Below, in pieces: positions 17,903 through 37,539 of a stretch of DNA of 64,000 nt. The DNA comes from an uncultured Acidimicrobiia bacterium (GTDB taxonomy: Bacteria > Actinomycetota > Acidimicrobiia > UBA2766): contig CAYJLW010000001.1 in assembly GCA_964370965.1 (NCBI GenBank), positions 23,509 through 87,508 of the forward strand. Reading direction: 5' to 3'. Each line of letters begins with the position of its first letter. The stretch's first letter is position 1. The notes beneath the pieces were generated by a model. That model was given only the letters and a program-made list of their open reading frames with translations. It did not search any database and was not told the DNA's origin. The position numbers were made by a program, and so were the translations under genes.

Positions 17903-18813
17903 ACGTCGACCCTGCGCCGGAAGAGCTGCCAGGCGGCGACGGTGGGCAGGGCCGCCCACACCACGAGGGCGCCGGCCACGAGCCAGCCCAGGGAGTCGCC
18001 GAAGCGGTCGACCGCGTAGCTGCCGGCGGGACCGAGGACGTCGAGGGAGCCGTGCAGCACGATCATGGCGAGGAGGCGGAAGGCCTCCACGGGGTTGGCG
18101 AGTACGGAGAAGAACAGGACGTTGACCGGGAGTTGCGTGGCGACCGCTGTGCCCATGATCCCGAGGTCGCCCAGGAACGTGAAGATCAGCCACACGAACA
18201 GGGCGACACCCAGCGCCGTACCGACCCGCCGGGCGAGGACGCTCACGAGCATCCCGACGCCGAGCATGGAGACGGCGAGCACCCAGGAGAAGAAGGCGAT
18301 CTCGGCGAGGACGGCCGGGTTCCAGCTCGAGGAGCGGATCGCCCCCAGGACGCCGGCGATCCCGAAACCGGCCGCCACGGCGGCGGCGAGGGCCGCCGCG
18401 GAGCCGAGGTACATGCCGAGGAAGGCCTCGGTACGGCTGATCGGGTGGCTGAGGAGGAGGCGCAGCGTCCCCCGTTCGCGCTGGCCCGCCACGCCGCGGG
18501 CCCCCAGAGTGAGGCCCATGAGGGGGATGACGAGTTGGGCGAGGGCCACCAGGGACGCCGCCGCCCGGCCGAATCCCCCAAAGGCGGCGACCTCGTCGTC
18601 GGAGAGGGCGATGAGTGCCAGCGTGCTGGCGAGCAGGGCGAAGGCGCCGGCGTAGAGCCAGAACCAGCGGTCGCGCATGGCGTCGCGGAGCTCCTTGCGG
18701 GCGATCGTGAGGATCGTCCCCCACTCGGGTCGTTCGCTCCGTATCTGCGCCGGGGACCCGCCTTCGGCCGGTACGACCGTGGTCGCGCGTTCGGTCGTGA
18801 TCTCTGTCGTCAT
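17899..18813 (-). CDS. nosY: NosY ABC-2 type permease
   Basis: Six-TM permease with 'LTIARKELRDAMRDRWFWLYA'. The start at MTTEITTE overlaps the nosF stop (ATGA). Confidence 0.75.
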   Translation of the reverse strand: MTTEITTERATTVVPAEGGSPAQIRSERPEWGTILTIARKELRDAMRDRWFWLYAGAFALLASTLALIALSDDEVAAFGGFGRAAASLVALAQLVIPLMGLTLGARGVAGQRERGTLRLLLSHPISRTEAFLGMYLGSAAALAAAVAAGFGIAGVLGAIRSSSWNPAVLAEIAFFSWVLAVSMLGVGMLVSVLARRVGTALGVALFVWLIFTFLGDLGIMGTAVATQLPVNVLFFSVLANPVEAFRLLAMIVLHGSLDVLGPAGSYAVDRFGDSLGWLVAGALVVWAALPTVAAWQLFRRRVDV

Positions 18814-19664
18814 CTCCACACCTCGAAGTCCCGGAGCTCCACTCCGTGGTCGTGCAGCGCCGCGATCGCCTCGCCCTTGCCCTGGGCGGACACCTCCACC
18901 AGGACCCCGTGGCCGTTGTCGCGGGCGGCGAAACCGGCATCGACGAGAATGCGCAGGGCGTCGGGGACGCGGGACTCGTCCACCACGAGGTGGAGCCAGG
19001 ACTGCAGGCCCAGGCGTTCGGCGAGCTCGGAGGGCGGGCACTCGACCGTGACGCGACCCTCCTCCATGCCGAGCACACGGTCCACGAGCATGCCGACCTC
19101 CTCGAGGTGGTGGGACGTGAGGAGCAAGGAGCGGCCCTCGTCGCGGAGGCGGCCGAAGAGGTCCACGGCCTTCTCGCGGGCGGACACGTCGAGGTTCGAC
19201 GTGGGCTCGTCCAGCAGGAGGACGGGGGGGTCGGGGAGGAGGGCGACGGCGATGCCGAGGCGCTGACGCATCCCGCCGGAGAGAGCGCCCACCTCCTTGT
19301 CGAGCTCGTCGCCGAGGTCCACGGTGTCGATCACGTCGAGGGCGCGCCGGGGGGAGACGCGCCGGAGCTGGGCGGAGAACTCGACCATCTCGCCCACGGT
19401 GAGGTCCTCGTAGAAGGCGAGCTCCTGGGGTACGTGGCCGAGCAGGCTACGCACGGCCTTGCCCGCCCGAGCGGCGTCGAGGCCGGCGACCTCGACACGG
19501 CCCTCGTAGGCGGCGAGGCCGAGGATGCAGCGGACGACCGTCGTCTTTCCCGCTCCGTTCGGGCCCCACAGGGCGAGAGCTTCGCCGTCGGCGAGCTCGA
19601 AGGACACGTCGCGGACGACCTCCACCTCCCCGTAGCTCTTCACGAGGTTCTCGACACGGATCAT
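18810..19664 (-). CDS. nosF: NosF ABC transporter ATP-binding protein
   Basis: Walker A 'GPNGAGKTT', signature 'LSGGMRQRL' and Walker B 'LLLDEPTSNLD'. The start at MIRVENLVKSYG overlaps the nosD stop (ATGA). Confidence 0.8.
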   Translation of the reverse strand: MIRVENLVKSYGEVEVVRDVSFELADGEALALWGPNGAGKTTVVRCILGLAAYEGRVEVAGLDAARAGKAVRSLLGHVPQELAFYEDLTVGEMVEFSAQLRRVSPRRALDVIDTVDLGDELDKEVGALSGGMRQRLGIAVALLPDPPVLLLDEPTSNLDVSAREKAVDLFGRLRDEGRSLLLTSHHLEEVGMLVDRVLGMEEGRVTVECPPSELAERLGLQSWLHLVVDESRVPDALRILVDAGFAARDNGHGVLVEVSAQGKGEAIAALHDHGVELRDFEVWR

Positions 19665-21085
19665 GTGTTCGCCTTCCGGGTCGCGGTCGCGGTCGCGGCC
19701 TTGGGGCCGGGGCCTCGCCGGCGACCCCTGTGGACGCCGGATGCGGCGACGACGGCGGCGGCGACCGCGAGGAGGAGGACCGGCCACAGCAGGTTCGCCG
19801 CCCCGGAGCCGGGGACGGGGATCTTGCGCATCGGGGGCAGCGTGGGTGCCGACGTGAGCGGTCTGCGGTCGACGGCCTTGGGTTCCGGTTCCAGGACGGG
19901 GAAGGCTCGGGCGGCGAAGTCGATCGCCCGGGCAGCGGGTGTGTCGGCGTAGATGTTGAGCCCGGGGTTGTCGCCCGTGAGGACGGCGAAGGGTTCCTCG
20001 ACGCGTTCGGGGATGTCGCCGATGCCGTCGCCGTCGGCGTCGAAGCCGGCGTAGTCGCTCCAGAAGTTGCCTACGCCACCTGCGGACCAGCGGTTCTTGT
20101 CGAGCGTGCCGCCGCCGTCGACCTCGATCTGGGTGCCGTTGTCGACGAAGGCGTTGCGTGTGAACACGTTGTGGGCCACGGAGGCGAAGGCCTGCACGCC
20201 CACCTCGTTGTAGGCGACGAGGTTGCCCGCGAAGCGGTTCCGGGCGCTGAGCGTGCTGGGGGAGTTGTCGATGTAGATCCCCACGCGGTTCCCCACGATC
20301 CTGTTCCGGTTCGCCGTGAAGTCGTCGACGTCCTTGAGGCCGAGGCCGAGGCCGCTGGGGCCGTCGCCCTCGGCGAGGATGTTGCCCGTCATCGTGAGCC
20401 GGCGGCTGTACATGGCGTAGACGCCCACGGAGTTGTGGACGAAGCGGTTGTCGTCGATGGTGCTGTCCTCCACGTACATGAGGTGGAGGCCGTAGCGGCT
20501 GTCGCTGACTTCGTTGTCGCGGGTCGTGACGTCGCGCGAATACCAGATGACGGCGTCGCGGCCGTGACGGACGGTGTTGCGCTCGACGAGCGCCCCGTCA
20601 CTGCCCCAGATGCGGAGGCCGTCGCCGCGGCGGGCGACAGGCAGGCGCTTGGCGCCGATGACGTTGCCGGTCACCCGGGAGTCCGGCGAGTCGAGGAGGT
20701 GGATCCCGAAGAGGACGTCCTCGAAACGGTTGTCGACGACGCGAGCTCGGGGGGCGCCTGTGAGGACGATGCCGGCGTCGGTGTCCACGAGCGTGGTGCC
20801 ACTGTTGCGGGCGACCAGCCCGCGTACGGTGACGTCGGGGGCCTTCACCGTGATCACGGTGCCCCTGCCCGCGGCGTCGATCACCGGGCGGCCGTGCCCG
20901 ATCAGACGCAGGGGCTTGTCGATCACGACGGGGCCGCGGTAGGTGCCGGGCGAAACCGTGACTGTCTCCCCCGGTGCGGCCGCGTCGATGCGGGCCTGCA
21001 GGTCCGGGCGCGCCGCCCCCCCCGCCGGCCACAGCGCGAGAGCGCCCGAGCACGCGCCCAGGACGAGGGCGGTGAGGCGTCTCAT
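19661..21085 (-). CDS. nosD: NosD periplasmic copper-processing beta-helix protein
   Basis: Right-handed beta-helix repeats ('NVIGAKRLPVARRGDGLRIWGS', 'NRIVGNRVGIYIDNS', 'NLVAYNEVGVQAF'). The start overlaps the stop of the upstream membrane gene (ATGA). Confidence 0.85.
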   Translation of the reverse strand: MRRLTALVLGACSGALALWPAGGAARPDLQARIDAAAPGETVTVSPGTYRGPVVIDKPLRLIGHGRPVIDAAGRGTVITVKAPDVTVRGLVARNSGTTLVDTDAGIVLTGAPRARVVDNRFEDVLFGIHLLDSPDSRVTGNVIGAKRLPVARRGDGLRIWGSDGALVERNTVRHGRDAVIWYSRDVTTRDNEVSDSRYGLHLMYVEDSTIDDNRFVHNSVGVYAMYSRRLTMTGNILAEGDGPSGLGLGLKDVDDFTANRNRIVGNRVGIYIDNSPSTLSARNRFAGNLVAYNEVGVQAFASVAHNVFTRNAFVDNGTQIEVDGGGTLDKNRWSAGGVGNFWSDYAGFDADGDGIGDIPERVEEPFAVLTGDNPGLNIYADTPAARAIDFAARAFPVLEPEPKAVDRRPLTSAPTLPPMRKIPVPGSGAANLLWPVLLLAVAAAVVAASGVHRGRRRGPGPKAATATATRKANT

Positions 21086-21882
21086 GTCGTGTCGGCGGCC
21101 TCCGATGCGGCCGGCTCCCCGTCGACGGTGTCCGTGACGGCGTCGACCACGTCCTCGCCAGGTTTCGCGGCGTCCTTACCGCCGCTGGCCTCGACCAGGG
21201 GCTTGTAGGCCTTGCGGTGGTACCAGAGGCCGAACCCGATCACGACGGAGGCGGCGAGGGCGAGGAGGAGGCCCGGCCCCGGGAGGGCAAGGGTGTCGAA
21301 GTTGGCGATGGTGGCGGGCCCGAGCACAGGGGGGGTGAAGTCGCCCACGGCGCCGGCGAGGGGCGCTGTGGGGTCGAGGCTGTGGCCGTAGCGCCAGAGC
21401 CAGAACTGCAGGTCCCCCAGGAATATGAGCGGAAAGAACAGCGCCGGGAACGTGAGGAGCACGACGAAGCGGCTCCGCAGGGCCAGGGCGGCGAGCAGCA
21501 GGCAGGCGAAGGCGACGATGGCGATGACCGAGAGCGAGCGCTCCAGGACGGCCCCGGACTTGAACGAGGGCATGCCGATGTAGTGGTTGAGCTCCTCGAT
21601 CTCGTTGAGGGCGTTCACCTGCTCGCCCGCCTTGCGGACCCCCTCGAGGCGGTTCACGTAGGCCTTCACCTCGAGGCCGTCCGGGTACTGCGGGGCGGTG
21701 AGGCGCAGGATCCAGTACGGGAAGAGGATGGACACGACGAGGAGGACGCCGGCCGTCACGAAGAGCGTCTTGGGTGTGGCGTAGAGGCGCCAGTTCTTCT
21801 GGATCTCCTCGGGGGGGACCTTTGGTCCGATGATGGTCTCGCCGAGCCCCATGCTGCGTCCGTTTCTGCGCTGTGAGTTCAT
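21082..21882 (-). CDS. nos-cluster integral membrane protein (NosB-like, clade II clusters)
   Basis: Hydrophobic helices ('LFVTAGVLLVVSILFPYWIL', 'VIAIVAFACLLLAALAL', 'LLTFPALFFPLIFLG', 'LLLALAASVVIGFGLWY'). Its position immediately after nosZ matches clade II nos loci. The assignment is by position and topology only. Confidence 0.45.
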   Translation of the reverse strand: MNSQRRNGRSMGLGETIIGPKVPPEEIQKNWRLYATPKTLFVTAGVLLVVSILFPYWILRLTAPQYPDGLEVKAYVNRLEGVRKAGEQVNALNEIEELNHYIGMPSFKSGAVLERSLSVIAIVAFACLLLAALALRSRFVVLLTFPALFFPLIFLGDLQFWLWRYGHSLDPTAPLAGAVGDFTPPVLGPATIANFDTLALPGPGLLLALAASVVIGFGLWYHRKAYKPLVEASGGKDAAKPGEDVVDAVTDTVDGEPAASEAADTT

Positions 21883-21964: not shown

Positions 21965-24016
21965 CTACTGAACCGTCATGTAGCCGGCCATCTCCAGGTG
22001 GAGTGCCGAGCAGAACTCGAGGCAGTAGAAGGGGAAGACCCCGGACCTGTCGGCCACGAACTGCACGGTGGCGGTTTCGCCCGGCTCCAGGCTCACGTTG
22101 ATGTTGTACCCGGGGATGTTGAACCCGTGGGTGGCGTCCTGGGCCTGCTCGAGGTTCGTGATCCTCCAGGTGACGTTGTCACCCGCCTTCAACTCCACAC
22201 GGTCGGGCGTGAAGTGGCTGCGGATGGCCGTCATGTCGATCGTGACGTTGTTGCCGTTGCGGGTGATCTTCTCCTGGCCCTGCTTGGGGGCGGTGGGGTC
22301 GATCGCCATGGTGCCCGGGTCGAAGCCCACGCCGGGGTAGACCTTGAACGGCTTCAACTTGTCCGCCTTGATGATCTGGGCGTAGTGGGGCTCACCGATG
22401 CCCATGGGCATGTCGTAGAGCACGGGCATGTCCTTGCCGCCTTTGGAGATGTCCAGGAGCTGGAAGTTCTGGGGCAGGAGGGGCCCGGTGGGGAAGAAGC
22501 GGTCGAGCGACCACTTGTTCAGCGCCACCAGCCAGTTGCCGTCAGGACTCACCGTGTCGCCTTCGGCGGTGGCGAGGTGGCCGATGTTGTACTGCACCTT
22601 GGTCTTCTGGATGAGCGCCCAGGGCTTGTCGTCCTTGGGGGCGTACTTGCCGCCGAAGCTCCAGCGGGCCACGGCGGAGTCCAGGAAGAGGCTGGTGTAG
22701 GCGTAGCCCTTGTTGTCGAACTGGGTGTGCAGCGGGCCGAGGCCGATCTCGACCTGGGCCTCCTTGGCGGAGTCGAAGTCGATGACCGGGACGCCGTACG
22801 GGCCGTACGGGTCCTCCTTGAACTTCTTGTCCTCGATCGCCTTCATGATCTTCTTGAAGGAGTAGATCGTGACGTGCGGGTCGAGTTTGCCCGCCACGAC
22901 GATGAACTCGCCGCTGGGGTGGACGTCGGAGCCGTGAGGGCTCTTGGGCTCGGGCACGAAGTAGAGGAGGCCCTCCTGGTTCGTGGTCTCGAGCGGGATG
23001 ACCGGGAAGCCGCCGATGTTGACGGTCTTGCCCGCGGCTGCCACCTCGGCGGCCTTCTTCAGGTTGATGACGTGGAGGTAGTCCATCTCGTGGACGGTCG
23101 TGCTCTTCTCGAAGGGTTCGCCGCCGGGGCCGCCCTGGGCCTTGGGGAGGTCGCCGCCGTTGGCGGTCTCGGTGTTGAAGGAGTTGCAGAAGATCCAGCC
23201 GTCGCTCACCTTCTTGCCGGAGTCACAGAGGTCCTGCCAGTAGGGCGGGAGCTCCATGGCGAAGGACTTGGAGGGGTCGATCCTGCCCGCCTGGCGGTCG
23301 AACTTCCACATCGTGATCATGCCCCGGTAGAGCTCGCGGTACTGCTCGACGGGGCCGTACTTGAAGCCCAGCGGGGTGGCGTACTGGCCGCCCTCGACGA
23401 CCCACTCGGTGTCGGGGGTCACGAAGCTGCCGCCGTGGTCGCTGAGTGTGAGGGGGTTCTTGATGATCTGCTTGGTCTCGAAGTCCTTCAGGTTGACGAC
23501 GGCCTCACGGGCGTTCGCCTTGTCGTTGATGAAGATGAACTCGCCGTCGTACTCGCCGTTCGTCTCCGATATCGAGGGGTGGTGGGTGTCGCCCCAGCGG
23601 ATCGGCTTGCCCTGCCAGTCGCCCTCGGCGAGGACTTCGTCGGTGACCTTGTTGCCGAAGCCCCAGCCCGCCCAGGCCTCGGGGGTGAACACGCCGATGG
23701 AGCGCAGGATCCGCATCGACGGGATGCCGACGACGAAGAGCTGGCCGGAGTGCCCCCCGGAGGCGAGCATGATGTAGGGGTCGTGCCTCCCGCTGGGGGT
23801 GTAGGTCATGAGCGCGGCGTCCTGGTCTGCCTGGCTGAGCTTGCGCTCCTTGGCGATGTCGGAGCCGGCGCCGCTGCCGCCGCCGCACGACACGGCGACG
23901 AGGGCGATCACCGCCGCCACGGCGACGAGGGGCAGCCAGAGGCGCTGGGCACCCCTCTTCGCGCTCCCGGTCGCCACCTGTTCTGCCTTCTGGCGCAACT
24001 CGGTCAGCTTTGACAT
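21965..24016 (-). CDS. nosZ: nitrous-oxide reductase, clade II (Sec/lipoprotein type)
   Basis: N-terminal TM plus lipobox 'LVAVSCGGGSG' with no Tat motif. Seven-bladed propeller region and C-terminal CuA cupredoxin 'HGFNIPGYNINVSLEPGE...FYCLEFCSALHLEMAGYMTV'. Confidence 0.9.
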   Translation of the reverse strand: MSKLTELRQKAEQVATGSAKRGAQRLWLPLVAVAAVIALVAVSCGGGSGAGSDIAKERKLSQADQDAALMTYTPSGRHDPYIMLASGGHSGQLFVVGIPSMRILRSIGVFTPEAWAGWGFGNKVTDEVLAEGDWQGKPIRWGDTHHPSISETNGEYDGEFIFINDKANAREAVVNLKDFETKQIIKNPLTLSDHGGSFVTPDTEWVVEGGQYATPLGFKYGPVEQYRELYRGMITMWKFDRQAGRIDPSKSFAMELPPYWQDLCDSGKKVSDGWIFCNSFNTETANGGDLPKAQGGPGGEPFEKSTTVHEMDYLHVINLKKAAEVAAAGKTVNIGGFPVIPLETTNQEGLLYFVPEPKSPHGSDVHPSGEFIVVAGKLDPHVTIYSFKKIMKAIEDKKFKEDPYGPYGVPVIDFDSAKEAQVEIGLGPLHTQFDNKGYAYTSLFLDSAVARWSFGGKYAPKDDKPWALIQKTKVQYNIGHLATAEGDTVSPDGNWLVALNKWSLDRFFPTGPLLPQNFQLLDISKGGKDMPVLYDMPMGIGEPHYAQIIKADKLKPFKVYPGVGFDPGTMAIDPTAPKQGQEKITRNGNNVTIDMTAIRSHFTPDRVELKAGDNVTWRITNLEQAQDATHGFNIPGYNINVSLEPGETATVQFVADRSGVFPFYCLEFCSALHLEMAGYMTVQ

Positions 24017-24133
24017 GTCGCTCCTCCCTTGGTGGGTGTCGGGTCCGCGCCCGGGTCGTCTGGTGTGTCGAGGGGGGGACGGAAGCGCGCCGGGCCCTCC
24101 ATGGCGCTGTCCGCGGGGTCGTCGAGAGGGATT

Positions 24134-24148
24134 GTGAAACTGTGGACA
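24134..24148. promoter_or_regulatory. weak CRP/FNR-type half-palindrome TGTGA-N5-GGACA in the nosZ / cytochrome c divergent region
   Basis: This is 3/5 of the second half-site only. A 5-bp IR TGGACaaaGTCCA lies adjacent (24143-24155). Confidence 0.15.
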
Positions 24149-24459
24149 AAGTCCATGCCGCCAGCCAACACCTGAACAGGATGTGCCGAAAGGGACCTAC
24201 GTCCCGGATCGGCGGGCCATCCGCCCTTGGCTGGGAACCAACTGGAACAACGCGCATGTCGTGTCGCGTCCACGGAGACGGCGGGGAAGGTGTCTCCGGG
24301 GTCTTCCGGCGGGCAAGCCGACGGTCGGCGCCGCGACGGTGTGGGCGCGTGAGTGGGATTCGCCGGGCGTGATCTCCTAGGCTCTCGCGCCGTCGGTTCG
24401 AGTTCACAGCCGGCACACAGGTTCTCGGACGGAGGCCCTGGATCGAGAAAGGTGACTCC

Positions 24460-24930
24460 ATGCAGAAGGTGCGCAGCACCCGGCGGATTTCCGGCCTGCT
24501 GAAGGCCCTCTGGGTCGTCACGCTGGCTTCCCTGCTCGTTCTCGGTGCCGCCTGCGGCGGCGGTGACAAGAAGTCCGACGACGACGACGGCGGCAGCGAC
24601 ACGACGGAGACGACCGAGTCGAAGCCCAAGGCCGACGGCGCCAAGGTGTACGTGGACGCGGGCTGCAACGGCTGCCACGGTGCCAACGGCGAGGGCGGCA
24701 CGGGCCCGGCGTTCAAGAACACCGCCACGGTCTTCCCCGACGAGGCGGACCAGATCGACTGGGTGAGCGAGAAGGCCGCGGCCACCTCCGGCCCGTATGG
24801 AGCCAACAACTCCGGCAACAACGGCCAAGGCTCCACGGTCGGTGCCATGCCGGCGTTCAAGGACACGCTGAGCAAGGACGAGATCGCCGCCGTCGTGCAG
24901 TACGAGCGCGACGTGCTGGCCAAGAAGTAG
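24460..24930 (+). CDS. lipoprotein c-type cytochrome (mono-haem)
   Basis: Lipobox 'LGAAC', haem-binding 'CNGCHG', and a Met ligand region 'GAMPAF'. It is divergent from nosZ. Confidence 0.8.
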   Translation: MQKVRSTRRISGLLKALWVVTLASLLVLGAACGGGDKKSDDDDGGSDTTETTESKPKADGAKVYVDAGCNGCHGANGEGGTGPAFKNTATVFPDEADQIDWVSEKAAATSGPYGANNSGNNGQGSTVGAMPAFKDTLSKDEIAAVVQYERDVLAKK

Positions 24931-24952
24931 GGGCCCCGGCCCCGAGCTCGCG

Positions 24953-24984
24953 AAAACGCCGCCCCCTCGGGGGCGGCGTTTTCG
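24953..24984. terminator. intrinsic bidirectional terminator after the cytochrome c gene
   Basis: 'AAAACGCCGCCCCCTCGGGGGCGGCGTTTTCG': a perfect 10-bp GC stem flanked by an A-tract and a T-tract. A second hairpin GGGGGACtggcGTCCCCC lies at ~24993-25011. Confidence 0.6.
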
Positions 24985-25264
24985 CGTTTCGAAGGGGGAC
25001 TGGCGTCCCCCCTCGGTCTCCCCCCTCCGGAGCGGGCCCCCGTCCGCGTCCCGACGGGCTAGTTCGCGAGTTGACACGGTTTGGATGCGGGCGCTATCAA
25101 TCTCGCAGTGACTTTGTGAAGGGCTTCACAAAGTCACTGCGCCTTCTGGGTCGTCGGACGTGGCACCGGATGGGAGGTTTGCGGACCACAACCCGTTCTG
25201 AAGTGGCTCTCCCTCCCTCGACGCCCCACGCCCGAGGGAACCCCGATGCCAGGAGGCGAACAGC

Positions 25265-28200
25265 ATGCGGCAGTCCCCGGACGCCAACCCCTTGAACGAC
25301 CGCCAGGACACCCACGAGCGCCGCCGCCGCGGCGGGCTCTCCAGAAGGGAGTTGCTCGCCGCCGCTCCCGCGGCCCTGGCCGGTGTCGTCGCCGGGACCC
25401 GCCCCGCCGCCGCCCTCGTGGGGGACCTCGCGCACCTCCAGGCCCTCCCGCCGGGTACGAACCCCTTCGTGAACTACCCGAACCGCGACTGGGAGAAGGT
25501 CTACCGCGACCTCTACCGGCCGGACTCCCAGTTCCACTACCTCTGCGCCCCGAACGACACCCACGGCTGCCTCCTGAAGGCGAACGTCAAGAACGGCATC
25601 GTCGTCTACGCCGACCCCAGCTACGGATACGGCAAGGCGGGCGACGTCTACGGGAACAAGGCCTCCTCGCGGTGGGACCCTCGGGCCTGCATCAGCGGTC
25701 TCTCCTACGTGCGGCGCATGTACTCCGACCGGCGCGTCAAGGGAACGTTCGTCCGCAAGGGTTTCAAGGCATGGGCGGACGCCGGCTTCCCCCGCGACCC
25801 CAAGTCGGGCAGGGTCCCGGTCCAGTACACCGAGGGCCGGGGCAAGGAGGAGTTCGTCAAGGTCGATTTCGACGACGCCTGCGAGATCTACGCCCGCGGC
25901 CTCATGGACGTCGCCGAGACCTACAGCGGCGAGGAGGGCGCCCGGCGCCTCCACCACCAGGGTTACGACGAGGCGATGATCGAGTCGATGCACGGGGCGG
26001 GCACCCGGACCCTCAAGAACCGCGGCGGCATGCCTTATGACGCCATGTACCGCGTCGGGGGCCTGTACCGATTCGCCAACATGCTCGCCCTTCTCGACGA
26101 CCACGTCCGCAAGGTCGGCCCAGAGGAGGCCCTGGGCGGGAAGCACTGGGACAACTACTGCTGGCACACCGACCTGCCGCCCGGGCACCCGATGGTGAGC
26201 GGTCAGCAGACCATCGACTTCGACCTCTACACAGCCGAGAACGCGAACCTCATCACGCTGTGGGGCATGAACTGGATCGCCACGAAGATGCCCGACGGCC
26301 ACTGGCTCACGGAGGCGAAGCTCAAAGGCACCAAGATCGTCACGATCGCCCCCGAGTACCAGTCCTCCACGTCCAAGGCCGACCGCGCCGTCGTGATCCG
26401 CCCGGGCTCCGACGGCGCCCTCGCCCTGGGCCTCGCCCACGTGATCGTGAAGGAGAAGCTCTACGACGAGGCCGCGGTCAAGACCCGCACCGACCTGCCG
26501 GTGCTCGTGCGCACCGACAACCTCAAGTACCTGCGGCCCTCCGACGTGATCCCGGGCTACCAGCTCGCGAACCTCACGAACAGCATGACGCTCGTGGACG
26601 ACGCCGCCTCTCTGAAGAAGAAGCCGCCCATGCCCCCGGCGCTCCAGTCGACGCAGTTCCTCTCCAAGGAGCTCCGTGCGGAATGGGGCGACTTCATGGT
26701 CTGGGACACGGCGTCGAACGCCGCCAAGCCCATCAGCCGGGACAACGTCGGCCAGTACTTCACCGACATGGGCATCGACCCGGCCCTCGAGGGCGAGTTC
26801 GAGGTCGCCCTCGCCGACGGCAAGAAGGTGAAGGTCCGCCCCGTCTTCGACGCCATCAAGCAGCACCTCATGGACTCCGCGAGCCCGAAGCAGATCTCCG
26901 CGGTCACATGGGCGCCTGAGAAGGCGATCGTGGAGCTCGCCCGCCAGATCGCCGCCAACAAGCGGAAGACCCTCTTCACGACGGGCATGGGCCCGAACCA
27001 CTTCTTCAACAACGACTGCAAGGACCGCACGATCATCCTTGTGGCGGCCCTCACCGACAACGTAGGCCACTTCGGCGGCACCGTCGGGAGCTACGCGGGC
27101 AACTACCGCCTCGCCATGGTCCCCGGCATCGCCCAGTACGCCTTCGAGGATCCCTTCAACCAGAACCTCGACCCGAACACGCTCGCGAAGATCCGCTGGT
27201 ACTACAAGGGCGAGTCCGCCCACTACTACAACTACGGCGACCGGCCCCTGCGCGAGGGCAACCACCTCTTCACCGGCGAGACGCACATGCCCGCCCCCAC
27301 GAAGACGGTCACCGTGGCGAACTCGAACTCGATCCTGGGCAACGCAAAGGGTGCCTACAAGGTGATCATGGAGACCCTGCCGAAGATCGAGATGTACACG
27401 GTCGCCGACTGGTTCTGGACGGCGACCTGCGAGTACGCAGACATCGTCTTCGGCGTGGACTCCTGGGTGGAGCGTAAGCGCCCCGACCTCTTCGGGTCCG
27501 TGACGAACCCGTTCATCCAGGCCTGGCCCCGATCGCCCCTGCCCCGGATCTTCGACACCCACGACGACGTCGAGGTGTGGGCGAACATCGCGAAGAAGCT
27601 CGGCGAGCTCACAGGCGACGTCCGCTTCGAGAACCACTGGCACTTCGTGCACACGAACCAGGACGAGGTGTACCTGCAGCGGGCATTCGACGCCGGCAAC
27701 ACGACCAAGGGCTACAAGTTCACCGACCTCGACAAGTCCTGCGAGGCGGGGACGCCCTTCTACATGATGATGCGCACGAGCCCCCGCATAGTGGGCTACG
27801 AGCAGACCTACGAGTCCAAGCCCTGGTACACCAAGACGGGCCGCCTCGAGTTCTACCGGGAGGAGGACGAGTTCGTCGCCAGCGGCGAGAACCTCCCCGT
27901 ACACCGCGAGCCCGTCGACGGCACCGTGTACGAGCCCAACGTCATCCTCGCCGCCGACCACCCCCTCATAAGACCCAAGACACCGGCGGACTACGACCTC
28001 GACCCGAAGGACATGAGCACAGACGTCCGCCAGGTGCGCAACGTCGTGCTCACCCCGGAGGAGATCGCGAAGTCCAAGCACCCCCTGCGCAAGGACGGCT
28101 TCACCCACATCCTGATCACGCCCAAGTACCGCCACGCCTGCCACTCCATGGGCGCCAGCGTGGACACGGACACGATCATCTGGGGTCCCTTCGGAGACTT

Positions 28201-28822
28201 CTACCGCCACGACAAGCGCAAGCCCTGGTCCGCCGAGGGCTACGTCGACATGAACCCGGCCGACGCCGAGGAGCTCGGCTTCCACGACGGCGACTACGTC
28301 TACGTCGACGCCGACCCCGAGGACCGGCCGTTCAAGGGCTGGCAGGAGAAACCGGACGACTACAAGGTGATGCGCTGGCTCGTGCGGGTGCGCTACAACC
28401 CGAGCCTCGCCCGCCAGGTGGGCCGGGCCTGGTTCCACTTCTACATCTCCACGCACGGATCCGTGGAGGGCCACGAGACGCGAGAGGACGGCCTCGCCAA
28501 GAACCCACGGACGAACTACCAGGCCGCCTACCGCTTCGGCAGCCACCAGTCTGTCACCCGGGCCTGGCTGCGGCCCACGCTCCAGACCGACTCGATGGCC
28601 CGCAAGGACACCATCGGCCAGGTCCTGAACAAGGGTTTCGCCCTCGACACGCACCAGGTCACGGGCGCGCCCAAGGAGTCCTTCGTGAAGTTCACCCCCG
28701 GCGAGCCCGGCGGCGAGGACGGCGAGGGCCTCTGGTACCCGGCGAAGGAAGGCTTCCGGCCCGGCCGGGAGAACGACGCCATGAAGCAGTACCTCCAGGG
28801 CAAGTTCATCACGGAGAGGTAG
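25265..28822 (+). CDS. Tat-exported molybdopterin oxidoreductase alpha subunit, type II DMSO-reductase family (Nxr/periplasmic-Nar-like)
   Basis: Twin-arginine signal 'RRGGLSRRELLAAAPAALAGVVAG', an N-terminal His/Cys FS0-type cluster 'FHYLCAPNDTHGC', and a 1185 aa size in the NarG/NxrA range. It is followed by the Fe-S beta, haem gamma and TorD genes. The AGGAGG RBS lies 8 nt upstream. Confidence 0.85.
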   Translation: MRQSPDANPLNDRQDTHERRRRGGLSRRELLAAAPAALAGVVAGTRPAAALVGDLAHLQALPPGTNPFVNYPNRDWEKVYRDLYRPDSQFHYLCAPNDTHGCLLKANVKNGIVVYADPSYGYGKAGDVYGNKASSRWDPRACISGLSYVRRMYSDRRVKGTFVRKGFKAWADAGFPRDPKSGRVPVQYTEGRGKEEFVKVDFDDACEIYARGLMDVAETYSGEEGARRLHHQGYDEAMIESMHGAGTRTLKNRGGMPYDAMYRVGGLYRFANMLALLDDHVRKVGPEEALGGKHWDNYCWHTDLPPGHPMVSGQQTIDFDLYTAENANLITLWGMNWIATKMPDGHWLTEAKLKGTKIVTIAPEYQSSTSKADRAVVIRPGSDGALALGLAHVIVKEKLYDEAAVKTRTDLPVLVRTDNLKYLRPSDVIPGYQLANLTNSMTLVDDAASLKKKPPMPPALQSTQFLSKELRAEWGDFMVWDTASNAAKPISRDNVGQYFTDMGIDPALEGEFEVALADGKKVKVRPVFDAIKQHLMDSASPKQISAVTWAPEKAIVELARQIAANKRKTLFTTGMGPNHFFNNDCKDRTIILVAALTDNVGHFGGTVGSYAGNYRLAMVPGIAQYAFEDPFNQNLDPNTLAKIRWYYKGESAHYYNYGDRPLREGNHLFTGETHMPAPTKTVTVANSNSILGNAKGAYKVIMETLPKIEMYTVADWFWTATCEYADIVFGVDSWVERKRPDLFGSVTNPFIQAWPRSPLPRIFDTHDDVEVWANIAKKLGELTGDVRFENHWHFVHTNQDEVYLQRAFDAGNTTKGYKFTDLDKSCEAGTPFYMMMRTSPRIVGYEQTYESKPWYTKTGRLEFYREEDEFVASGENLPVHREPVDGTVYEPNVILAADHPLIRPKTPADYDLDPKDMSTDVRQVRNVVLTPEEIAKSKHPLRKDGFTHILITPKYRHACHSMGASVDTDTIIWGPFGDFYRHDKRKPWSAEGYVDMNPADAEELGFHDGDYVYVDADPEDRPFKGWQEKPDDYKVMRWLVRVRYNPSLARQVGRAWFHFYISTHGSVEGHETREDGLAKNPRTNYQAAYRFGSHQSVTRAWLRPTLQTDSMARKDTIGQVLNKGFALDTHQVTGAPKESFVKFTPGEPGGEDGEGLWYPAKEGFRPGRENDAMKQYLQGKFITER

Positions 28823-28831
28823 GTCACCCAA

Positions 28832-29971
<1,140 letters not shown>

Positions 29972-29981
29972 GGAGGCCGAG

Positions 29982-31046
29982 ATGACACCCGACGGGACCC
30001 CCACAGAAACGGCCGGGACCGAGGAGAACGGCGCCGAGGCGAGCGAAGCCGGCACCGAGGCTGTCCGGACCGAGTTGGAGCCCACGGACGAGAAGCCCAC
30101 GGCCGTCGTCGCCGAGGCGGTGGCGAAGCCCGTGGACAGGCGCAAGTTCATCGCCGGCGGCGTCGCGGGAGCCGCCGTCGTCGGGGGTGCCGCCTACGGC
30201 CTCACCCGCCTGGCGGCGGAGGCCCCCCTCACGACCCACGTCACGTCCGCGCGCATCACGAAGTCCGTGCCGGTGCACGACCCGAGCTCGCCCCTGTGGG
30301 ACGCCGGCGAGCAGGCCCGCATCGAGATGGACGGCCAGGTGTTCTCGATGCCGATGCGCCAGAAGCCGTTCGTGGACTCCGTCAAGGTCCGCTCCGTCAA
30401 CGACGGCGACGTCATCGGGTTTCTCCTCGAGTGGGCGGTGCCGGTGTCGCGCAACTCCACGGTGCTCTGCGACCGTTTCCGCGACGGCTGCGCCGTCCTC
30501 CTCGCCCCGCCCGACGCCCCCGAAGGCGTGCGGATGATGGGTGCCCCCAACATGGCCGTCACGATCATGCAATGGAAGTCGGACTGGCAGCGCGACGTCG
30601 ACAAGGGGTATCAGGGCGTGGAGTCAGCGTTCCCGAACCTCGCCTTCGACTACTACCCGCCGCTCACCCCGGGGGAGTCCAACGTGAAGGGCGCCGACGG
30701 CTACTTCGCCAAGGGCGTCACGCAGTGGCTGCCCGGCTTCGCCGCCGGCAACCCGCTTGTGAAGATGGAGCGCCTCAGCCCCGTGGAGAAGCTCCACGCC
30801 AAAGGCTTCGGCACCGCCCAGACTCTCCCCACCCAGGACGGCGACGGTCGTGGGGTGTGGGCCGACGGCGTGTGGAAGGTCGTGATCGCCCGGCCCCTCG
30901 ACTCCGTGAACGAGGACGAGGTGAAGGTCGAACCGGGCGAGACGCACGGCATGGCCGTCGCCGTCTGGGCGGGCATGGCCAAGGACCGGGGCGGACAGAA
31001 GTCGCCCTCCAAGAAGCTCCTCCGCCTCCACGTCGAGAAGGGCTGA
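29982..31046 (+). CDS. gamma subunit with EB_dh-type haem-b domain (NxrC/ClrC/EbdC-like)
   Basis: N-terminal signal/anchor 'RRKFIAGGVAGAAVVGGAAYGL', then an ethylbenzene-dehydrogenase-gamma-like fold ('VHDPSSPLWDAGEQARIEM', 'WKVVIARPLD', 'MAVAVWAG'). Confidence 0.7.
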   Translation: MTPDGTPTETAGTEENGAEASEAGTEAVRTELEPTDEKPTAVVAEAVAKPVDRRKFIAGGVAGAAVVGGAAYGLTRLAAEAPLTTHVTSARITKSVPVHDPSSPLWDAGEQARIEMDGQVFSMPMRQKPFVDSVKVRSVNDGDVIGFLLEWAVPVSRNSTVLCDRFRDGCAVLLAPPDAPEGVRMMGAPNMAVTIMQWKSDWQRDVDKGYQGVESAFPNLAFDYYPPLTPGESNVKGADGYFAKGVTQWLPGFAAGNPLVKMERLSPVEKLHAKGFGTAQTLPTQDGDGRGVWADGVWKVVIARPLDSVNEDEVKVEPGETHGMAVAVWAGMAKDRGGQKSPSKKLLRLHVEKG

Positions 31047-31049
31047 GCC

Positions 31050-31808
31050 GTGGCCGCCTCCGCCCCCACAACGCAAGAGCCGAACACCACCGTGGTGCGG
31101 GCGGCGGCCTACAGCCGCCTCGCCCGCCTCCTCGGCGAGGACGTCACCCCGCTCACCGACGGATCGGGGATCGAGGAGCTGCAGTGGTGCCTCGACGTCC
31201 TCGAAGTCGACCCCGGCGGCGCCCTCGACGAGGTCGCCGGGCACGCCTGGGACCCTGACACGCTCTCTCTCGACCGCACGACCCTCTTCGAGCAGGGCAG
31301 GGTGGCCCCCTACGAGATGTCGTACCTGCCCGCGGGCCCCGCCGGGCACGTGGGCCAGCTCGCCGACGTCTCGGGCTTCTACCGCGCCTTCGGCTTCCGG
31401 GTCGAGGGTGAGCGCCCCGACCATGTGGCCGCCGAGCTCGAGTTCGCCGCCGTCCTCGCCCTGGCGACGGCCCACGCGACGGAGGACGGCAACGACGACG
31501 CCGCCGCCGTGTGCGAGGACGCCTACCGCAAGTTCCTCCGCGACCACCTCGGCTGTTGGCTCGACCGCTACGCCCGCAGGCTCCACGCGGAGGCCGCCGG
31601 CACGCCCTATCCCGCCCTCGTCGAGACGGCGGCGCTCTTCGTGGCCGGGGAGGCCCGCCGCCTCGGCGTCGAGCCCTACCAGCCCGTGGGCCTCCTCGCC
31701 GGTGACACGGAGACGGAGGAGGATTTCGCGCTCGAATGCGGCTCCTGCCCGGAGGCCGCACGCCTCGCCGGGGAGGCGCCCGGCGCCCCGAACGTCCGCG
31801 AGGGCTGA
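31050..31808 (+). CDS. TorD/NarJ/DmsD-family redox-enzyme maturation chaperone
   Basis: 'AAAYSRLARLLGEDVTPLTD', 'GFYRAFGF' and 'DHVAAELEFAAVLA' are TorD-family motifs. It is the last gene of the molybdoenzyme operon. Confidence 0.75.
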   Translation: MAASAPTTQEPNTTVVRAAAYSRLARLLGEDVTPLTDGSGIEELQWCLDVLEVDPGGALDEVAGHAWDPDTLSLDRTTLFEQGRVAPYEMSYLPAGPAGHVGQLADVSGFYRAFGFRVEGERPDHVAAELEFAAVLALATAHATEDGNDDAAAVCEDAYRKFLRDHLGCWLDRYARRLHAEAAGTPYPALVETAALFVAGEARRLGVEPYQPVGLLAGDTETEEDFALECGSCPEAARLAGEAPGAPNVREG

Positions 31809-34399: not shown

Positions 34400-34572
34400 T
34401 CGGCGCCCGGGTCCGAGGGGGGACGAAGTCCCCCTTCGAGGGCGTGCGGTGAGGGTGGTCTGTTCGCTAGGCCGGGCTTTGCCCGGCCGGAACGGCGTGT
34501 GGCCCGGGTGGCGGGCGCGTCGGGGGGGGTGTTCGAGGGGGGACGAAGTCCCCCTTCGAGGGCGTGCGGTGG
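34400..34572. repeat. REP-like composite hairpin repeats: a partial copy plus a full ~115-bp unit (hairpin A GGCCGGGCtttGCCCGGCC + spacer + hairpin B GAAGGGGGACgaaGTCCCCCTTC)
   Basis: The core 'GTTCGAGGGGGGACGAAGTCCCCCTTCGAGGGCGTGCGGTG' occurs at 34411-34447 and 34533-34569, the second time within the full unit. A ~90%-identical unit recurs at 37540-37662 and a reverse-oriented copy at 54947-55030. Confidence 0.6.
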
Positions 34573-34622
34573 GGATGTGTGCGCTGACAGACCCATGCCA
34601 GGGCAACGCCCCTGGCAGCGCT

Positions 34623-34937: not shown

Positions 34938-35003
34938 CCGGATCCGTCCGGTGTTGGAGGCGGGGCGTTCCGACGCTCCGCCTCCTCCGCGTCCCGGCGG
35001 GGT

Positions 35004-37487: not shown

Positions 37488-37539
37488 GCGGCAATGCTGA
37501 CAGCTAGCGTTGGGTTTGTCAAGTCACACATCGCCCGTG

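What the first reader, a model, noticed from the sequence alone, without database searches (positions are those of the whole stretch)
25265..31808. Nxr/periplasmic-Nar-type molybdoenzyme (Tat alpha 1185 aa + Fe-S beta + EB_dh haem gamma + TorD chaperone) adjacent to the nos cluster
- The subunit set and order (alpha-beta-gamma-chaperone) and the Tat signal place this in the type II DMSO-reductase clade. That clade contains periplasmic nitrate reductases, nitrite oxidoreductases of the Nitrospira/anammox type, and (per)chlorate, selenate and ethylbenzene enzymes.
- The alpha subunit is longer than Clr/Ser/Ebd-type enzymes (~900-980 aa) and closer to NarG/NxrA size.
- Its N-terminal cluster motif is atypical: FHYLCAPNDTHGC instead of H-x3-C-x3-C.
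- Physical linkage to nosZ suggests a denitrification role as a nitrate reductase. Substrate and direction cannot be decided from sequence.
Basis: partly seen in the sequence, partly recalled or inferred. Interest (0 to 1): 0.55.

Follow-up and report, generated by a model that had tools for sequence, protein, structure and literature searches.

The report
Outward-facing nitrate/nitrite oxidoreductase in an Acidimicrobiia bacterium
An uncultured actinobacterium (class Acidimicrobiia) carries a complete four-gene operon for an exported, membrane-anchored molybdenum enzyme of the family that interconverts nitrite and nitrate; it sits beside the N2O-reductase genes and shares a regulator-binding box with them, so it is a new member of a known enzyme clade whose working direction is still unknown.

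Summary
Four tightly spaced genes encode a 1185-aa Tat alpha, a four-cluster Fe-S beta, an EB_dh haem-b gamma and a TorD/NarJ chaperone, next to a clade II nos cluster.

The enzyme is neither a classical NarG nor an Ebd/Pcr/Ser-type enzyme. Alpha matches Kuenenia NxrA (PDB 7B04) at E 2e-266, against 222 bits for PcrA and 127 for NarG.

The "atypical" motif is misread. CAPNDTHGC is the C-x3-D-x3-C (3Cys/1Asp) FS0 site of periplasmic NXR-type enzymes. The substrate Asn, the Mo-ligand Asp303 and the Met/Lys haem ligands are all conserved.

In trees alpha falls in an Acidimicrobiia subclade, sister to the NxrA of the Chloroflexota nitrite oxidiser Ca. Nitrotheca patiens (67-69% identity). Both lie in the mixed NXR/NAR clade that is sister to the canonical Nitrospira/anammox NXRs (41% identity).

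The nos adjacency is unique to this genome (0 of 80 related species). However, nosZ and the operon share a CRP/FNR-type box.

Nitrate reduction in a heterotrophic partial denitrifier is the most likely role. Nitrite oxidation is not excluded. This is a new member of a known kind, of moderate interest.

The parts
25265..28822 (+). Alpha (NxrA/NarG-like) catalytic subunit, 1185 aa. Tat signal LSRRELL. FS0 ligands C94/D98/C102/C142, substrate Asn97, Mo-ligand Asp303 within Y298-x4-D303-x11-QT.
   Evidence: PDB 7B04_B E 2e-266 over the full length; residue mapping using the numbering of PMC8387239; AGGAGG ribosome-binding site 8 nt upstream.
28832..29971 (+). Beta (NxrB/NarH-like) Fe-S subunit, 379 aa, no signal peptide (inferred Tat hitch-hiker). 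Cys groups: C35/38/41/45, C154/157/162/166, C187/193/197 (3-Cys, 3Fe-4S type), C214/217/229/233.
   Evidence: PF13247 and TIGR03478; 7B04_A E 3.5e-109; Cys positions.
29982..31046 (+). Gamma (NxrC-like) EB_dh haem-b subunit, 354 aa. Acidic N-terminal tail, then DRRKF plus one hydrophobic helix (residues 56-74), read as a Tat signal-anchor. Haem ligands Met186 and Lys340.
   Evidence: PF09459; 7B04_C E 1.9e-22, with KsNxrC M155 and K305 aligned to M and K; N-termini of relatives.
31050..31808 (+). Delta (NxrD): TorD/NarJ-family assembly chaperone, 252 aa.
   Evidence: PF02613 E 2e-16; TIGR03482 at 70 bits.
25104..25141 (.). Perfect 18+18-nt palindrome containing TTGTGA-N6-TCACAA, a CRP/FNR-family operator type. 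Its centre lies about 142 nt upstream of the alpha start codon.
   Evidence: (I2). The same box type is enriched upstream of alpha genes in related loci: 17 sites against 1.0 expected.
24949..24986 (+). Perfect 18-bp GC-rich hairpin (GAAAACGCCGCCCCC..GGGGGCGGCGTTTTC) 19 nt after the cytochrome c stop codon. It looks like a terminator and would separate the cytochrome c gene from the operon.
   Evidence: I3.
24460..24930 (+). Monohaem cytochrome c, 156 aa, CNGCH, with a lipoprotein-type signal (…LVLGAAC-GGG). Candidate extracytoplasmic electron carrier for NosZ and/or the Mo enzyme.
   Evidence: PF00034, PF13442; NCBIfam Bacillus-type c551/c550 below cut-off; sequence features.
24132..24153 (.). 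Second CRP/FNR-type box, TTGTGAAACTGTGGACAAAGTC, about 124 nt upstream of the nosZ start. It shares TTGTGAA-N7-ACAAAGTC with the nxrA box.
   Evidence: (D2/I1). These are the only two sites with <=2 mismatches in the 64 kb window.
21965..24016 (-). NosZ, clade II (Sec-dependent) N2O reductase, 683 aa, with a lipoprotein-like signal (…LVAVSC-GGG).
   Evidence: TIGR04246 at 808 bits, above its cut-off.
17390..21852 (-). nos accessory genes: 4-TM protein (NosB-like, 21082-21852), nosD (19661-21085), nosF (18810-19664), nosY (17899-18813), nosL (17390-17902).
   Evidence: Precomputed Pfam hits on the same contig; TIGR04247 NosD at 406 bits; TM helices.

Best explanation
The operon encodes an outward-facing, membrane-anchored nitrate/nitrite oxidoreductase of the periplasmic NXR/NAR type, with gene order nxrABCD.

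Assembly (inferred from the signals). Alpha receives Mo-bisPGD and the FS0 cluster with help from the delta chaperone. It is exported folded through Tat and carries beta with it. Gamma, a Met/Lys-ligated haem b protein, follows through its own twin-arginine signal-anchor. That anchor tethers the complex to the outer face of the membrane of this monoderm Acidimicrobiia bacterium.

Electron path (shown by conserved ligands). Mo (Asp303, Asn97) - FS0 (3Cys/1Asp) - FS1 to FS4 in beta - haem b in gamma. There is no quinol-oxidising subunit, so haem b must exchange electrons with an extracytoplasmic carrier. The lipoprotein cytochrome c encoded upstream is a candidate.

Most likely physiological use (inferred). 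Respiratory nitrate reduction under oxygen limitation in a heterotrophic partial denitrifier: menaquinol to a bc-type complex, to cytochrome c, to NxrC, to nitrate. Energy would be conserved at the bc step and no nitrate transporter would be needed. Expression would be co-controlled with nosZ by a CRP/FNR-family regulator acting on the shared TTGTGA-N6-TCACAA boxes.

The confidence given (0.55) is for the whole statement including the direction; the identity of the enzyme as an exported NXR/NAR-type complex on its own I hold at about 0.9.
For: Identity of the enzyme:
- KsNxrA, KsNxrB and KsNxrC are the best solved matches for all three subunits.
- All cofactor ligands are conserved (with PMC8387239).
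- In trees alpha sits in an Acidimicrobiia subclade (bootstrap 96 and 93). That subclade is sister to the Nitrotheca/Chloroflexota group, inside a clade (98) that is sister to the canonical Kuenenia-type NXRs.
- The ABCD gene order is as reported for the Nitrotoga/Chloroflexota type (PMC11009272).
- The literature describes this clade as mixed NXR/NAR, with Hydrogenobacter thermophilus carrying a characterised periplasmic NAR (PMC6050957).

Topology:
- Tat motif on alpha, with R27/R28 invariant.
- RRKF plus a helix on gamma. Relatives carry Tat signals followed by a lipobox Cys.

Direction:
- The operon lies beside a complete nos cluster.
- The only two CRP-type boxes in 64 kb lie upstream of nosZ and of nxrA.
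- The box type is conserved upstream of related alpha genes: 17 against 1.0 expected, and 7 against 0.075 at <=1 mismatch. This argues for regulated rather than constitutive expression.
- The rest of the window is heterotroph-type catabolism: GH116, sulfatases, BCKDH E1, enoyl-CoA hydratase, alcohol dehydrogenase.
- No nitrate transporter is present in the window, and none would be needed.
Against: - Direction is not encoded in any residue I could test. The nearest enzyme with an attached phenotype is the NxrA of a nitrite oxidiser, Ca. Nitrotheca patiens (67-69% identity).
- A Met/Lys haem b is high-potential in Kuenenia and EBDH. Together with a nearby cytochrome c, this is exactly what nitrite oxidation also requires.
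- The nos adjacency is not conserved in any relative, so it could be fortuitous.
- No nir or nor gene, and no bc-complex gene, is present in the window.
- TGTGA-N6-TCACA is also the general cAMP-CRP/GlxR box of Actinobacteria, so it is not specific to denitrification.
- Nitrotoga and Hydrogenobacter sequences could not be obtained. Membership of their clade rests on proxies (Caldarchaeum and Nitrotheca sequences) and on the matching 40-41% identity to KsNxrA.
Confidence: 0.55

Rival explanations
1. The complex works physiologically as a nitrite oxidoreductase. Nitrite is oxidised outside the cell. Electrons pass from haem b to the lipoprotein cytochrome c and on to a terminal oxidase. The Acidimicrobiia host would then be a facultative nitrite oxidiser, or would use the enzyme for nitrite detoxification or supplementary energy.
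For: - The sister group contains the NxrA of the nitrite-oxidising Ca. Nitrotheca patiens at 67-69% identity.
- The gene order is the same nxrABCD as in Nitrotoga, Chloroflexota and Nitrosediminicolota nitrite oxidisers.
- The 3Cys/1Asp FS0 and the Met/Lys haem b match the Kuenenia NXR, which does oxidise nitrite.
- A monohaem cytochrome c gene lies directly upstream. Kitzinger et al. state explicitly that members of this clade could be nitrite oxidisers if high-potential carriers are present.
Against: - The window's other genes point to organotrophy.
- A conserved CRP/FNR-type operator suggests conditional expression.
- The operon is co-located with an anaerobic respiration enzyme, NosZ, and shares a box with it.
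- The relatives span some 20 phyla and are mostly not known as nitrifiers.
- No Actinomycetota nitrite oxidiser turned up in the literature searches.
Confidence: 0.25
2. NXR, the cytochrome c and NosZ form one extracytoplasmic electron-transfer module that couples nitrite oxidation (E0' +0.42 V) to N2O reduction (E0' +1.36 V). This would be an anaerobic nitrite oxidation.
For: - The arrangement is divergent nosZ, then cytochrome c, then nxrABCD within 10 kb.
- All three proteins are predicted to be anchored on the outer face of the membrane.
- A regulator box is shared.
- The reaction is thermodynamically favourable (established redox potentials).
Against: - No precedent was found.
- The adjacency is unique to this genome.
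- Neither enzyme is a coupling site, so energy conservation would be limited to scalar protons.
- The cytochrome c is its own transcription unit. Accessory cytochrome c genes are common in clade II nos clusters (my own knowledge, not tested here).
Confidence: 0.05
3. The enzyme acts on a non-nitrogen substrate such as (per)chlorate, selenate, dimethyl sulfide or an alkyl-aromatic, as other type II DMSO-reductase members do.
For: - Family-level HMMs hit only below their cut-offs: TIGR03479 at 312 against 985, EbdA at 147 against 2000.
- The gamma subunit belongs to the EB_dh family.
Against: - Bit scores are 890 to KsNxrA, against 222 to PcrA and 134 to EbdA.
- The substrate-coordinating Asn (Ile in EbdA) is invariant in 85/86 sequences.
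- Alpha nests robustly (bootstrap 98-100) inside the NXR/NAR clades, away from the pNar/Pcr/Ebd-like representatives.
Confidence: 0.04

Closest known systems
NxrABCD of Candidatus Nitrotheca patiens (thermophilic nitrite-oxidising Chloroflexota; protein WCF43305.1)
   Same: - Alpha is 67-69% identical over the full length.
- The alpha-beta-gamma-delta gene order is the same.
- It has the same CAPNDTHGC FS0 motif and the same Mo-site string WHTDLPPGHPMVSGQQT.
- It is the sister group in both trees.
   Different: - The host phylum differs.
- The Nitrotheca-type locus is flanked by NirK-like and multicopper oxidase genes, a cupredoxin and a CRP-family regulator, not by nos genes.
- A nitrite-oxidising phenotype is documented for that organism (as cited in PMC11009272 and PMC11697166). 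There is none for any Acidimicrobiia carrier.
Nitrotoga-type NXR/NAR clade (Ca. Nitrotoga fabula NXR; Hydrogenobacter thermophilus periplasmic NAR; Ca. Caldiarchaeum enzyme), as defined by Kitzinger et al. 2018
   Same: - It is a sister lineage to the canonical NXRs.
- It has a Tat alpha and the order alpha-beta-gamma-chaperone.
- Identity to KsNxrA is about 40%: 41% here, about 40% reported for Nitrotoga and Hydrogenobaculum.
- Caldarchaeum sequences lie in the same well-supported clade.
   Different: - Nitrotoga NxrC has a Sec signal and no TM helix. Here gamma has a Tat-type signal-anchor.
- Nitrotoga has QM after the Mo motif; here it is QT.
- Nitrotoga and Hydrogenobacter sequences themselves were not available for direct comparison.
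Kuenenia stuttgartiensis NXR-ABC (PDB 7B04)
   Same: - It is the best solved match for alpha (E 2e-266), beta (3.5e-109) and gamma (1.9e-22).
- These residues are all conserved: FS0 C/D/C/C, Asn70, Asp275, haem Met155/Lys305.
   Different: - Alpha identity is only 41%, and it lies in the other (canonical) clade.
- The anammox enzyme is soluble, forms tubules with NXR-T inside the anammoxosome, and is encoded in a 15-gene cluster. None of that is present here.
Haloarchaeal periplasmic nitrate reductase (pNarGH with Rieske/cytochrome b partners), e.g. Halomicrobium salinisoli plasmid locus
   Same: It has a Tat-exported alpha, an Fe-S beta, an EB_dh-related gamma and a TorD chaperone in the same order.
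   Different: - Identity is 27%.
- FS0 is H-x3-C-x3-C.
- Rieske and cytochrome b genes lie directly upstream; none are here.
- Alpha is about 1000 aa.
E. coli NarGHJI
   Same: The Mo-Asp, the Asn, the overall Fe-S chain and the NarJ-type chaperone are shared.
   Different: - Identity is 26%.
- It has no Tat signal and faces the cytoplasm.
- Its anchor is the dihaem quinol-oxidising NarI rather than an EB_dh haem protein.
- FS0 is His-ligated.
- It needs NarK transport.

Membership tests
Type II DMSO-reductase family (NarG/NxrA/Pcr/Ebd group) | Mo-coordinating Asp in the Y-x4-D context, plus an N-terminal FS0 cluster | tested here: met
   Y298-x4-D303 is present and D303 is invariant in 86/86 aligned sequences. 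FS0 ligands are C94/D98/C102/C142.
Type II DMSO-reductase family (NarG/NxrA/Pcr/Ebd group) | Score above the curated cut-offs of TIGR03479/03478/03477/03482 | tested here: not met
   Scores are 312/985, 258/481, 95/170 and 70/152 bits. These models were built on Pcr/Ser/Ebd-like members, so the enzyme is a divergent relative of that subgroup.
Periplasmic NXR lineages (canonical plus Nitrotoga-type) | 3Cys/1Asp FS0 motif C-x3-D-x3-C with the preceding substrate Asn | tested here: met
   CAPNDTHGC aligns with KsNxrA C67..N70-D71..C75. 82 of 86 sequences have Asp. NarG and pNarG have H...C...C.
Periplasmic NXR lineages (canonical plus Nitrotoga-type) | Tat signal on alpha, no signal on beta, exported haem-b EB_dh gamma with Met/Lys ligands | tested here: met
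   LSRRELL with R27/R28 invariant. Beta has no signal. Gamma has RRKF plus a helix, and M186/K340 align with KsNxrC M155/K305.
Canonical Nitrospira/Nitrospina/anammox NXR clade | Phylogenetic placement inside the clade (about 60% or more identity to KsNxrA) | tested here: not met
   Identity to KsNxrA is 41%. Alpha falls in the sister clade (bootstrap 98), while the representatives that are 56-60% identical to KsNxrA group with Kuenenia.
Nitrotoga/Chloroflexota-type NXR/NAR clade | Placement with clade members and the nxrABCD gene order | tested here: met
   Alpha groups with Ca. Nitrotheca patiens NxrA and with Caldarchaeum sequences at bootstrap 90-100. The ABCD order is conserved in all close relatives. 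Nitrotoga and Hydrogenobacter sequences themselves were not available; their link comes from the literature.
Nitrite oxidoreductase in the functional sense | Catalyses net nitrite oxidation in vivo, in a host that grows on or oxidises nitrite | not testable with these tools
   No culture, transcript or activity data are available, and only 64 kb of the genome is seen.
Respiratory nitrate reductase in the functional sense | Expressed under anoxia with nitrate and linked to a quinol-oxidising electron input | tested here: inconclusive
   A CRP/FNR-type box is shared with nosZ, and nos genes are adjacent. No bc-complex, Rieske or NarI-type gene is present in the window or next to relatives.
Haloarchaeal pNar | His-ligated FS0 and adjacent Rieske/cytochrome b (NarBC) | tested here: not met
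   Position 94 is Cys, not His. No Rieske or cytochrome b gene is nearby. Identity is 27%.
NarGHI | Cytoplasmic alpha-beta and a NarI dihaem membrane subunit | tested here: not met
   A Tat signal is present, gamma is of the EB_dh type, and there is no NarI.

The most novel reading that the evidence does not exclude
Acidimicrobiia of this lineage use the enzyme to oxidise nitrite. They would then be the first nitrite oxidisers in Actinomycetota. In the boldest form, they pass the electrons through the anchored cytochrome c to NosZ, coupling nitrite oxidation to N2O reduction without oxygen.
Probability: 0.1. Interest if true: 0.85.

Novelty: new member of a known kind. Interest (0 to 1): 0.42.

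Why it matters
Enzymes of this clade decide whether nitrite is turned into nitrate (nitrification) or nitrate into nitrite (the first step of denitrification). For most carriers nobody knows which.

The scan found relatives in 454 species-level genomes. The 80 best matches are all from uncultured organisms across many phyla. They include a coherent Acidimicrobiia subclade, a group common in soils, sediments and wastewater.

This locus gives three handles for testing direction:
- a genome where the enzyme sits beside nosZ;
- a shared and evolutionarily recurrent regulator box;
- a candidate cytochrome c partner.

It also shows that automated labels for these proteins, such as 'nitrate reductase alpha subunit', 'perchlorate reductase' or 'molybdopterin-dependent oxidoreductase', cannot be taken as functional calls in nitrogen-cycle gene inventories.

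Tried and rejected
- **Recent horizontal transfer of the nos-nxr island.** Total GC dips to 0.65-0.69. But GC3 of these genes (0.94-0.97) is the highest in the window, and alpha groups with other Acidimicrobiia. I found no evidence for recent import. The tRNA at 35.0 kb has no long repeat to the left that would bracket the island.
- **Conserved nos linkage.** Rejected: 0 of 80 species representatives, and none in the relatives.
- **Conserved linkage to nirK, Rieske/cytochrome b, cbb3 oxidase or a CRP regulator.** tblastn with proteins taken from other loci found nothing in the Acidimicrobiia clade.
- **Cytochrome c as part of the operon.** Rejected because of the strong hairpin at 24949-24986 and the 334-nt gap. 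The simple terminator scan did not score it, since its T-run lies inside the stem.
- **Literature on an Acidimicrobiia NXR.** Three searches found no paper that treats it.
- **Obtaining named Nitrotoga, Hydrogenobacter or Nitrospira sequences.** The 50%-identity representatives are unnamed or MAG-derived. The canonical clade was therefore represented by a partial KsNxrA transcribed from the alignment and by two representatives that are 56-60% identical to it.
- **Plasmid and phage collections.** The only hit of interest was a 48%-identical, unannotated (possibly disrupted) copy on a Natronococcus occultus plasmid.
- **Tree method.** The trees are neighbour-joining on Kimura-corrected distances, because no maximum-likelihood program was available. 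Deep nodes with support below 70 should not be trusted.

Full report
**1. What is in the sequence**

- alpha, 25265-28822, 1185 aa
- beta, 28832-29971, 379 aa
- gamma, 29982-31046, 354 aa
- delta, 31050-31808, 252 aa

They are on one strand and separated by 9, 10 and 3 nt. An AGGAGG ribosome-binding site lies 8 nt before the alpha ATG. Third-position GC is 0.94-0.97, so they are real genes and very probably one operon.

Pfam and NCBIfam give these calls:
- Alpha: a molybdopterin oxidoreductase.
- Beta: a 4Fe-4S dicluster protein. Sixteen Cys fall into the four NarH/NxrB-type groups, and the third group is a three-Cys group.
- Gamma: an EB_dh haem protein.
- Delta: a NarJ/TorD chaperone.

All four score well below the curated cut-offs of the 'type II DMSO reductase' models. 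The enzyme is therefore a relative of the Pcr/Ser/Ebd subgroup, not a member of it.

To the left, on the opposite strand, is a complete clade II nos cluster. It comprises nosZ (808 bits against a cut-off of 625), a four-helix membrane protein with no family match, nosD, nosF, nosY and nosL. Between nosZ and alpha lies a 156-aa monohaem cytochrome c.

**2. Host and setting**

The exact alpha protein occurs on at least 23 contigs of one ENA metagenome series and in an NCBI record. It therefore comes from a repeatedly assembled, uncultured population.

A housekeeping acyl-CoA carboxylase subunit from the window has its best named matches (75-80% identity) in Acidimicrobiia and Acidimicrobiales MAGs. 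The alpha tree agrees.

The rest of the 64 kb encodes ordinary organotrophic functions:
- a GH116 glycosidase, sulfatases and short-chain dehydrogenases;
- the branched-chain keto-acid dehydrogenase E1 component;
- enoyl-CoA hydratase, an alcohol dehydrogenase and an Lhr helicase.

There is no nir, nor, nitrate-transporter, bc-complex or oxidase gene. To the right of the operon are an MMPL transporter, a tRNA, repeats and an IS1595 transposase.

**3. Which enzyme it is**

The best solved matches are the three subunits of the Kuenenia stuttgartiensis nitrite oxidoreductase (PDB 7B04):
- alpha, E 2e-266, 890 bits, end to end;
- beta, E 3.5e-109;
- gamma, E 1.9e-22.

By comparison, perchlorate reductase scores 222 bits, ethylbenzene dehydrogenase 134 and E. 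coli NarG 127.

Using the residue numbers of the structure paper (PMC8387239), every cofactor ligand is present:

| Role | Kuenenia residue | Residue here |
|---|---|---|
| FS0 ligands | C67/D71/C75/C115 | C94/D98/C102/C142 |
| Substrate-coordinating Asn | N70 | N97 |
| Mo ligand | D275 | D303 |
| Haem b ligands (gamma) | M155/K305 | M186/K340 |

The NarG His corresponds to C94, not to H91. In my alignment 82 of 86 sequences have this Asp. NarG and haloarchaeal pNarG have H-x3-C-x3-C, and more distant representatives have four Cys.

**4. Where it sits in the family**

A scan of one genome per species found 454 genomes with a relative. The best 80 (55-71% identity) are all MAGs. They come from Acidimicrobiia, Chloroflexota, Nitrososphaerota/Caldarchaeum, Thermoplasmata, Acidobacteria, Bipolaricaulota, Omnitrophota, Planctomycetota, NC10 and others.

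I built two neighbour-joining trees: 1114 columns with 100 bootstraps, and 1017 columns with 200 bootstraps and wider sampling. Working outwards from the window's alpha:
1. It sits in an Acidimicrobiia/Actinomycetota subclade (support 96 and 93).
2. That subclade is sister to a Chloroflexota/Armatimonadota-like group containing the NxrA of the nitrite oxidiser Ca. Nitrotheca patiens (95 and 97).
3. Next come Nitrososphaerota/Caldarchaeum, then other archaea (100).
4. All of these lie inside a large clade (98) that is sister to the canonical clade, represented by Kuenenia NxrA and two representatives 56-60% identical to it.

Identity to KsNxrA is 41%. The structure paper reports about 40% for Nitrotoga and Hydrogenobaculum.

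Together with the Caldarchaeum and Nitrotheca anchors, this places the enzyme in the 'sister clade' of Kitzinger et al. (PMC6050957). That clade contains the Nitrotoga NXR and also the biochemically characterised periplasmic nitrate reductase of Hydrogenobacter thermophilus. Its members are regarded as possibly bidirectional. The alpha-beta-gamma-chaperone order is the one reported for Nitrotoga, Chloroflexota and Nitrosediminicolota enzymes. It is conserved in all close relatives, whereas more distant members use alpha-beta-delta-gamma.

**5. Topology and electron path**

Alpha has a twin-arginine signal, with R27 and R28 invariant. Beta has none and presumably travels with alpha.

Gamma starts with an acidic tail of about 50 residues, then DRRKF and a single hydrophobic helix. 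The nearest relatives share this layout. Many other Acidimicrobiia versions have a Tat motif followed by a lipobox cysteine.

In a monoderm cell the complex is therefore predicted to be tethered to the outer face of the membrane by gamma. No quinol-oxidising subunit is encoded, so electrons must enter or leave through the Met/Lys haem b by way of another carrier. The upstream cytochrome c has a lipoprotein-type signal and is an obvious candidate. NosZ has a lipoprotein-type signal as well.

The ligands and signals are shown by the sequence. The assembly route and the redox partners are inferred.

**6. Is the link to nos meaningful?**

Against a link:
- None of the 80 related species, nor three further close relatives, has nos genes within 10 kb.
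- The flanks of the operon differ in every genome examined.
- The cytochrome c gene is followed by a perfect 18-bp GC-rich hairpin and a 334-nt gap. It is therefore its own transcription unit, and it could equally serve NosZ.

For a link:
- About 142 nt upstream of alpha lies a perfect 38-nt palindrome whose core is TTGTGA-N6-TCACAA, the CRP/FNR-family operator type.
- About 124 nt upstream of nosZ lies TTGTGAAACTGTGGACAAAGTC, which shares 15 specified positions with the first box.
- These are the only two sites with two or fewer mismatches in the 64 kb window. I estimate about 0.3 such sites by chance from base composition.
- The box type recurs upstream of alpha genes in Actinomycetota, Chloroflexota, Acidobacteria and others. 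There are 17 sites in 79 upstream regions against 1.0 expected by shuffling, and 7 against 0.075 at one mismatch or fewer.

The operon is therefore probably under a CRP/FNR-family regulator, in this genome together with nosZ. This fits a conditionally expressed respiratory enzyme better than the constitutive core enzyme of an obligate nitrifier. However, the same box is used by general cAMP-CRP regulators in Actinobacteria, so it is suggestive only.

**7. Verdict on function**

With high confidence, this is an exported NXR/NAR-type nitrate/nitrite oxidoreductase.

Its physiological direction cannot be read from the sequence. I judge nitrate reduction in a heterotrophic partial denitrifier the most likely use, at about 0.55-0.6. 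That weight rests on the nos neighbourhood, the shared operator, the organotrophic context and the Hydrogenobacter precedent.

Nitrite oxidation, at about 0.25, stays open. The closest enzyme with a known phenotype is from a nitrite oxidiser, and the high-potential haem b plus cytochrome c are what oxidation needs. A non-nitrogen substrate is unlikely.

**8. Novelty**

The enzyme kind, its motif and its gene order are known. Acidimicrobiia copies already sit in public MAGs under uninformative names. I found no paper that treats them.

What is new here:
- the coherent Acidimicrobiia subclade;
- the signal-anchor or lipoprotein forms of gamma;
- the recurrent operator;
- the single-genome juxtaposition with nosZ.

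This makes it a new member of a known kind. It is of moderate interest, mainly as a good test case for the open question of direction in this clade.

Noticed in passing
window 35007-35094 (- strand); partial copy at 34925-34941: This tRNA gene (Rfam 60 bits) has a class II, tRNA-Ser-like body: a ~20-nt variable arm, the D-arm GGCCGAGUGGUAAGGC and a G discriminator. Its anticodon loop, however, is UUGAUAC, and ARAGORN calls it tRNA-Ile(GAU) at 93 nt. It could be a decayed tRNA-Ser(GCU) copy, or a serine-accepting tRNA that reads Ile codons. A 17-nt piece of it is duplicated 112 nt away.
   Followed up: partly
window 34400-34577 and 37536-37670: REP/MITE-like palindromic repeats are present. A 121-nt direct repeat (90% identity) and three copies of a 58-nt unit bracket a ~3-kb segment. 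That segment holds the odd tRNA, hypothetical ORFs and an IS1595-family transposase (36522-37487).
   Followed up: partly
related loci L004, L010, L013, L021, L029, L031, L033, L041, L072 and others, upstream of the alpha gene: A TTGTGA-N6-TCACAA (CRP/FNR-type) box recurs upstream of NXR/NAR-clade alpha genes in several phyla. There are 17 sites against 1.0 expected at <=2 mismatches, and 7 against 0.075 at <=1. No regulator has been assigned.
   Followed up: yes
loci L014-L018, L020, L022, L024, L025, L027, L030, L032, L035 (gamma genes): In many Acidimicrobiia relatives the haem-b gamma subunit starts with a twin-arginine motif followed by a lipobox cysteine (for example SRRNLLKSAAAGTGAMALASC). 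This suggests a Tat-exported lipoprotein anchor for the complex.
   Followed up: partly
loci L053-L056, L058, L061, L062, L064, L065, L070, L071, L073: In Omnitrophota, Planctomycetota and similar relatives the order is alpha-beta-delta-gamma. In most of them an ORF resembling the NosZ C-terminal cupredoxin (CuA-type) domain follows immediately after gamma (28-38% identity over about 90 aa); in L055 and L062 it lies about 2.6-2.7 kb further on. It may be a dedicated copper electron carrier.
   Followed up: no
L090 16538-23474 (relative with 71% identical alpha): In this close relative the nxrABCD operon lies next to a full system I cytochrome c maturation cluster (ccmABCEFH). This fits a c-type cytochrome partner for the enzyme.
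   Followed up: no
L085 (Natronococcus occultus SP4 plasmid 2, NC_019976.1, 114978-118351): A 48%-identical NXR/NAR-clade alpha gene sits on a haloarchaeal plasmid, followed by beta and a TorD chaperone. It matches in two pieces and carries no CDS in the plasmid gene table, so it may be a pseudogene. The cluster has no gamma gene.
   Followed up: partly
window 21082-21852 (- strand): A 256-aa protein with four predicted TM helices lies between nosZ and nosD and has no Pfam or NCBIfam match. By position it is probably the clade II accessory protein NosB.
   Followed up: partly
L088 (ENA ERZ13692951, same metagenome series): A second organism in the same samples carries its own nxrABCD (alpha 67% identical). 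A further 928-aa molybdopterin oxidoreductase lies 2.3 kb downstream. At least two populations with this enzyme type therefore co-occur.
   Followed up: no
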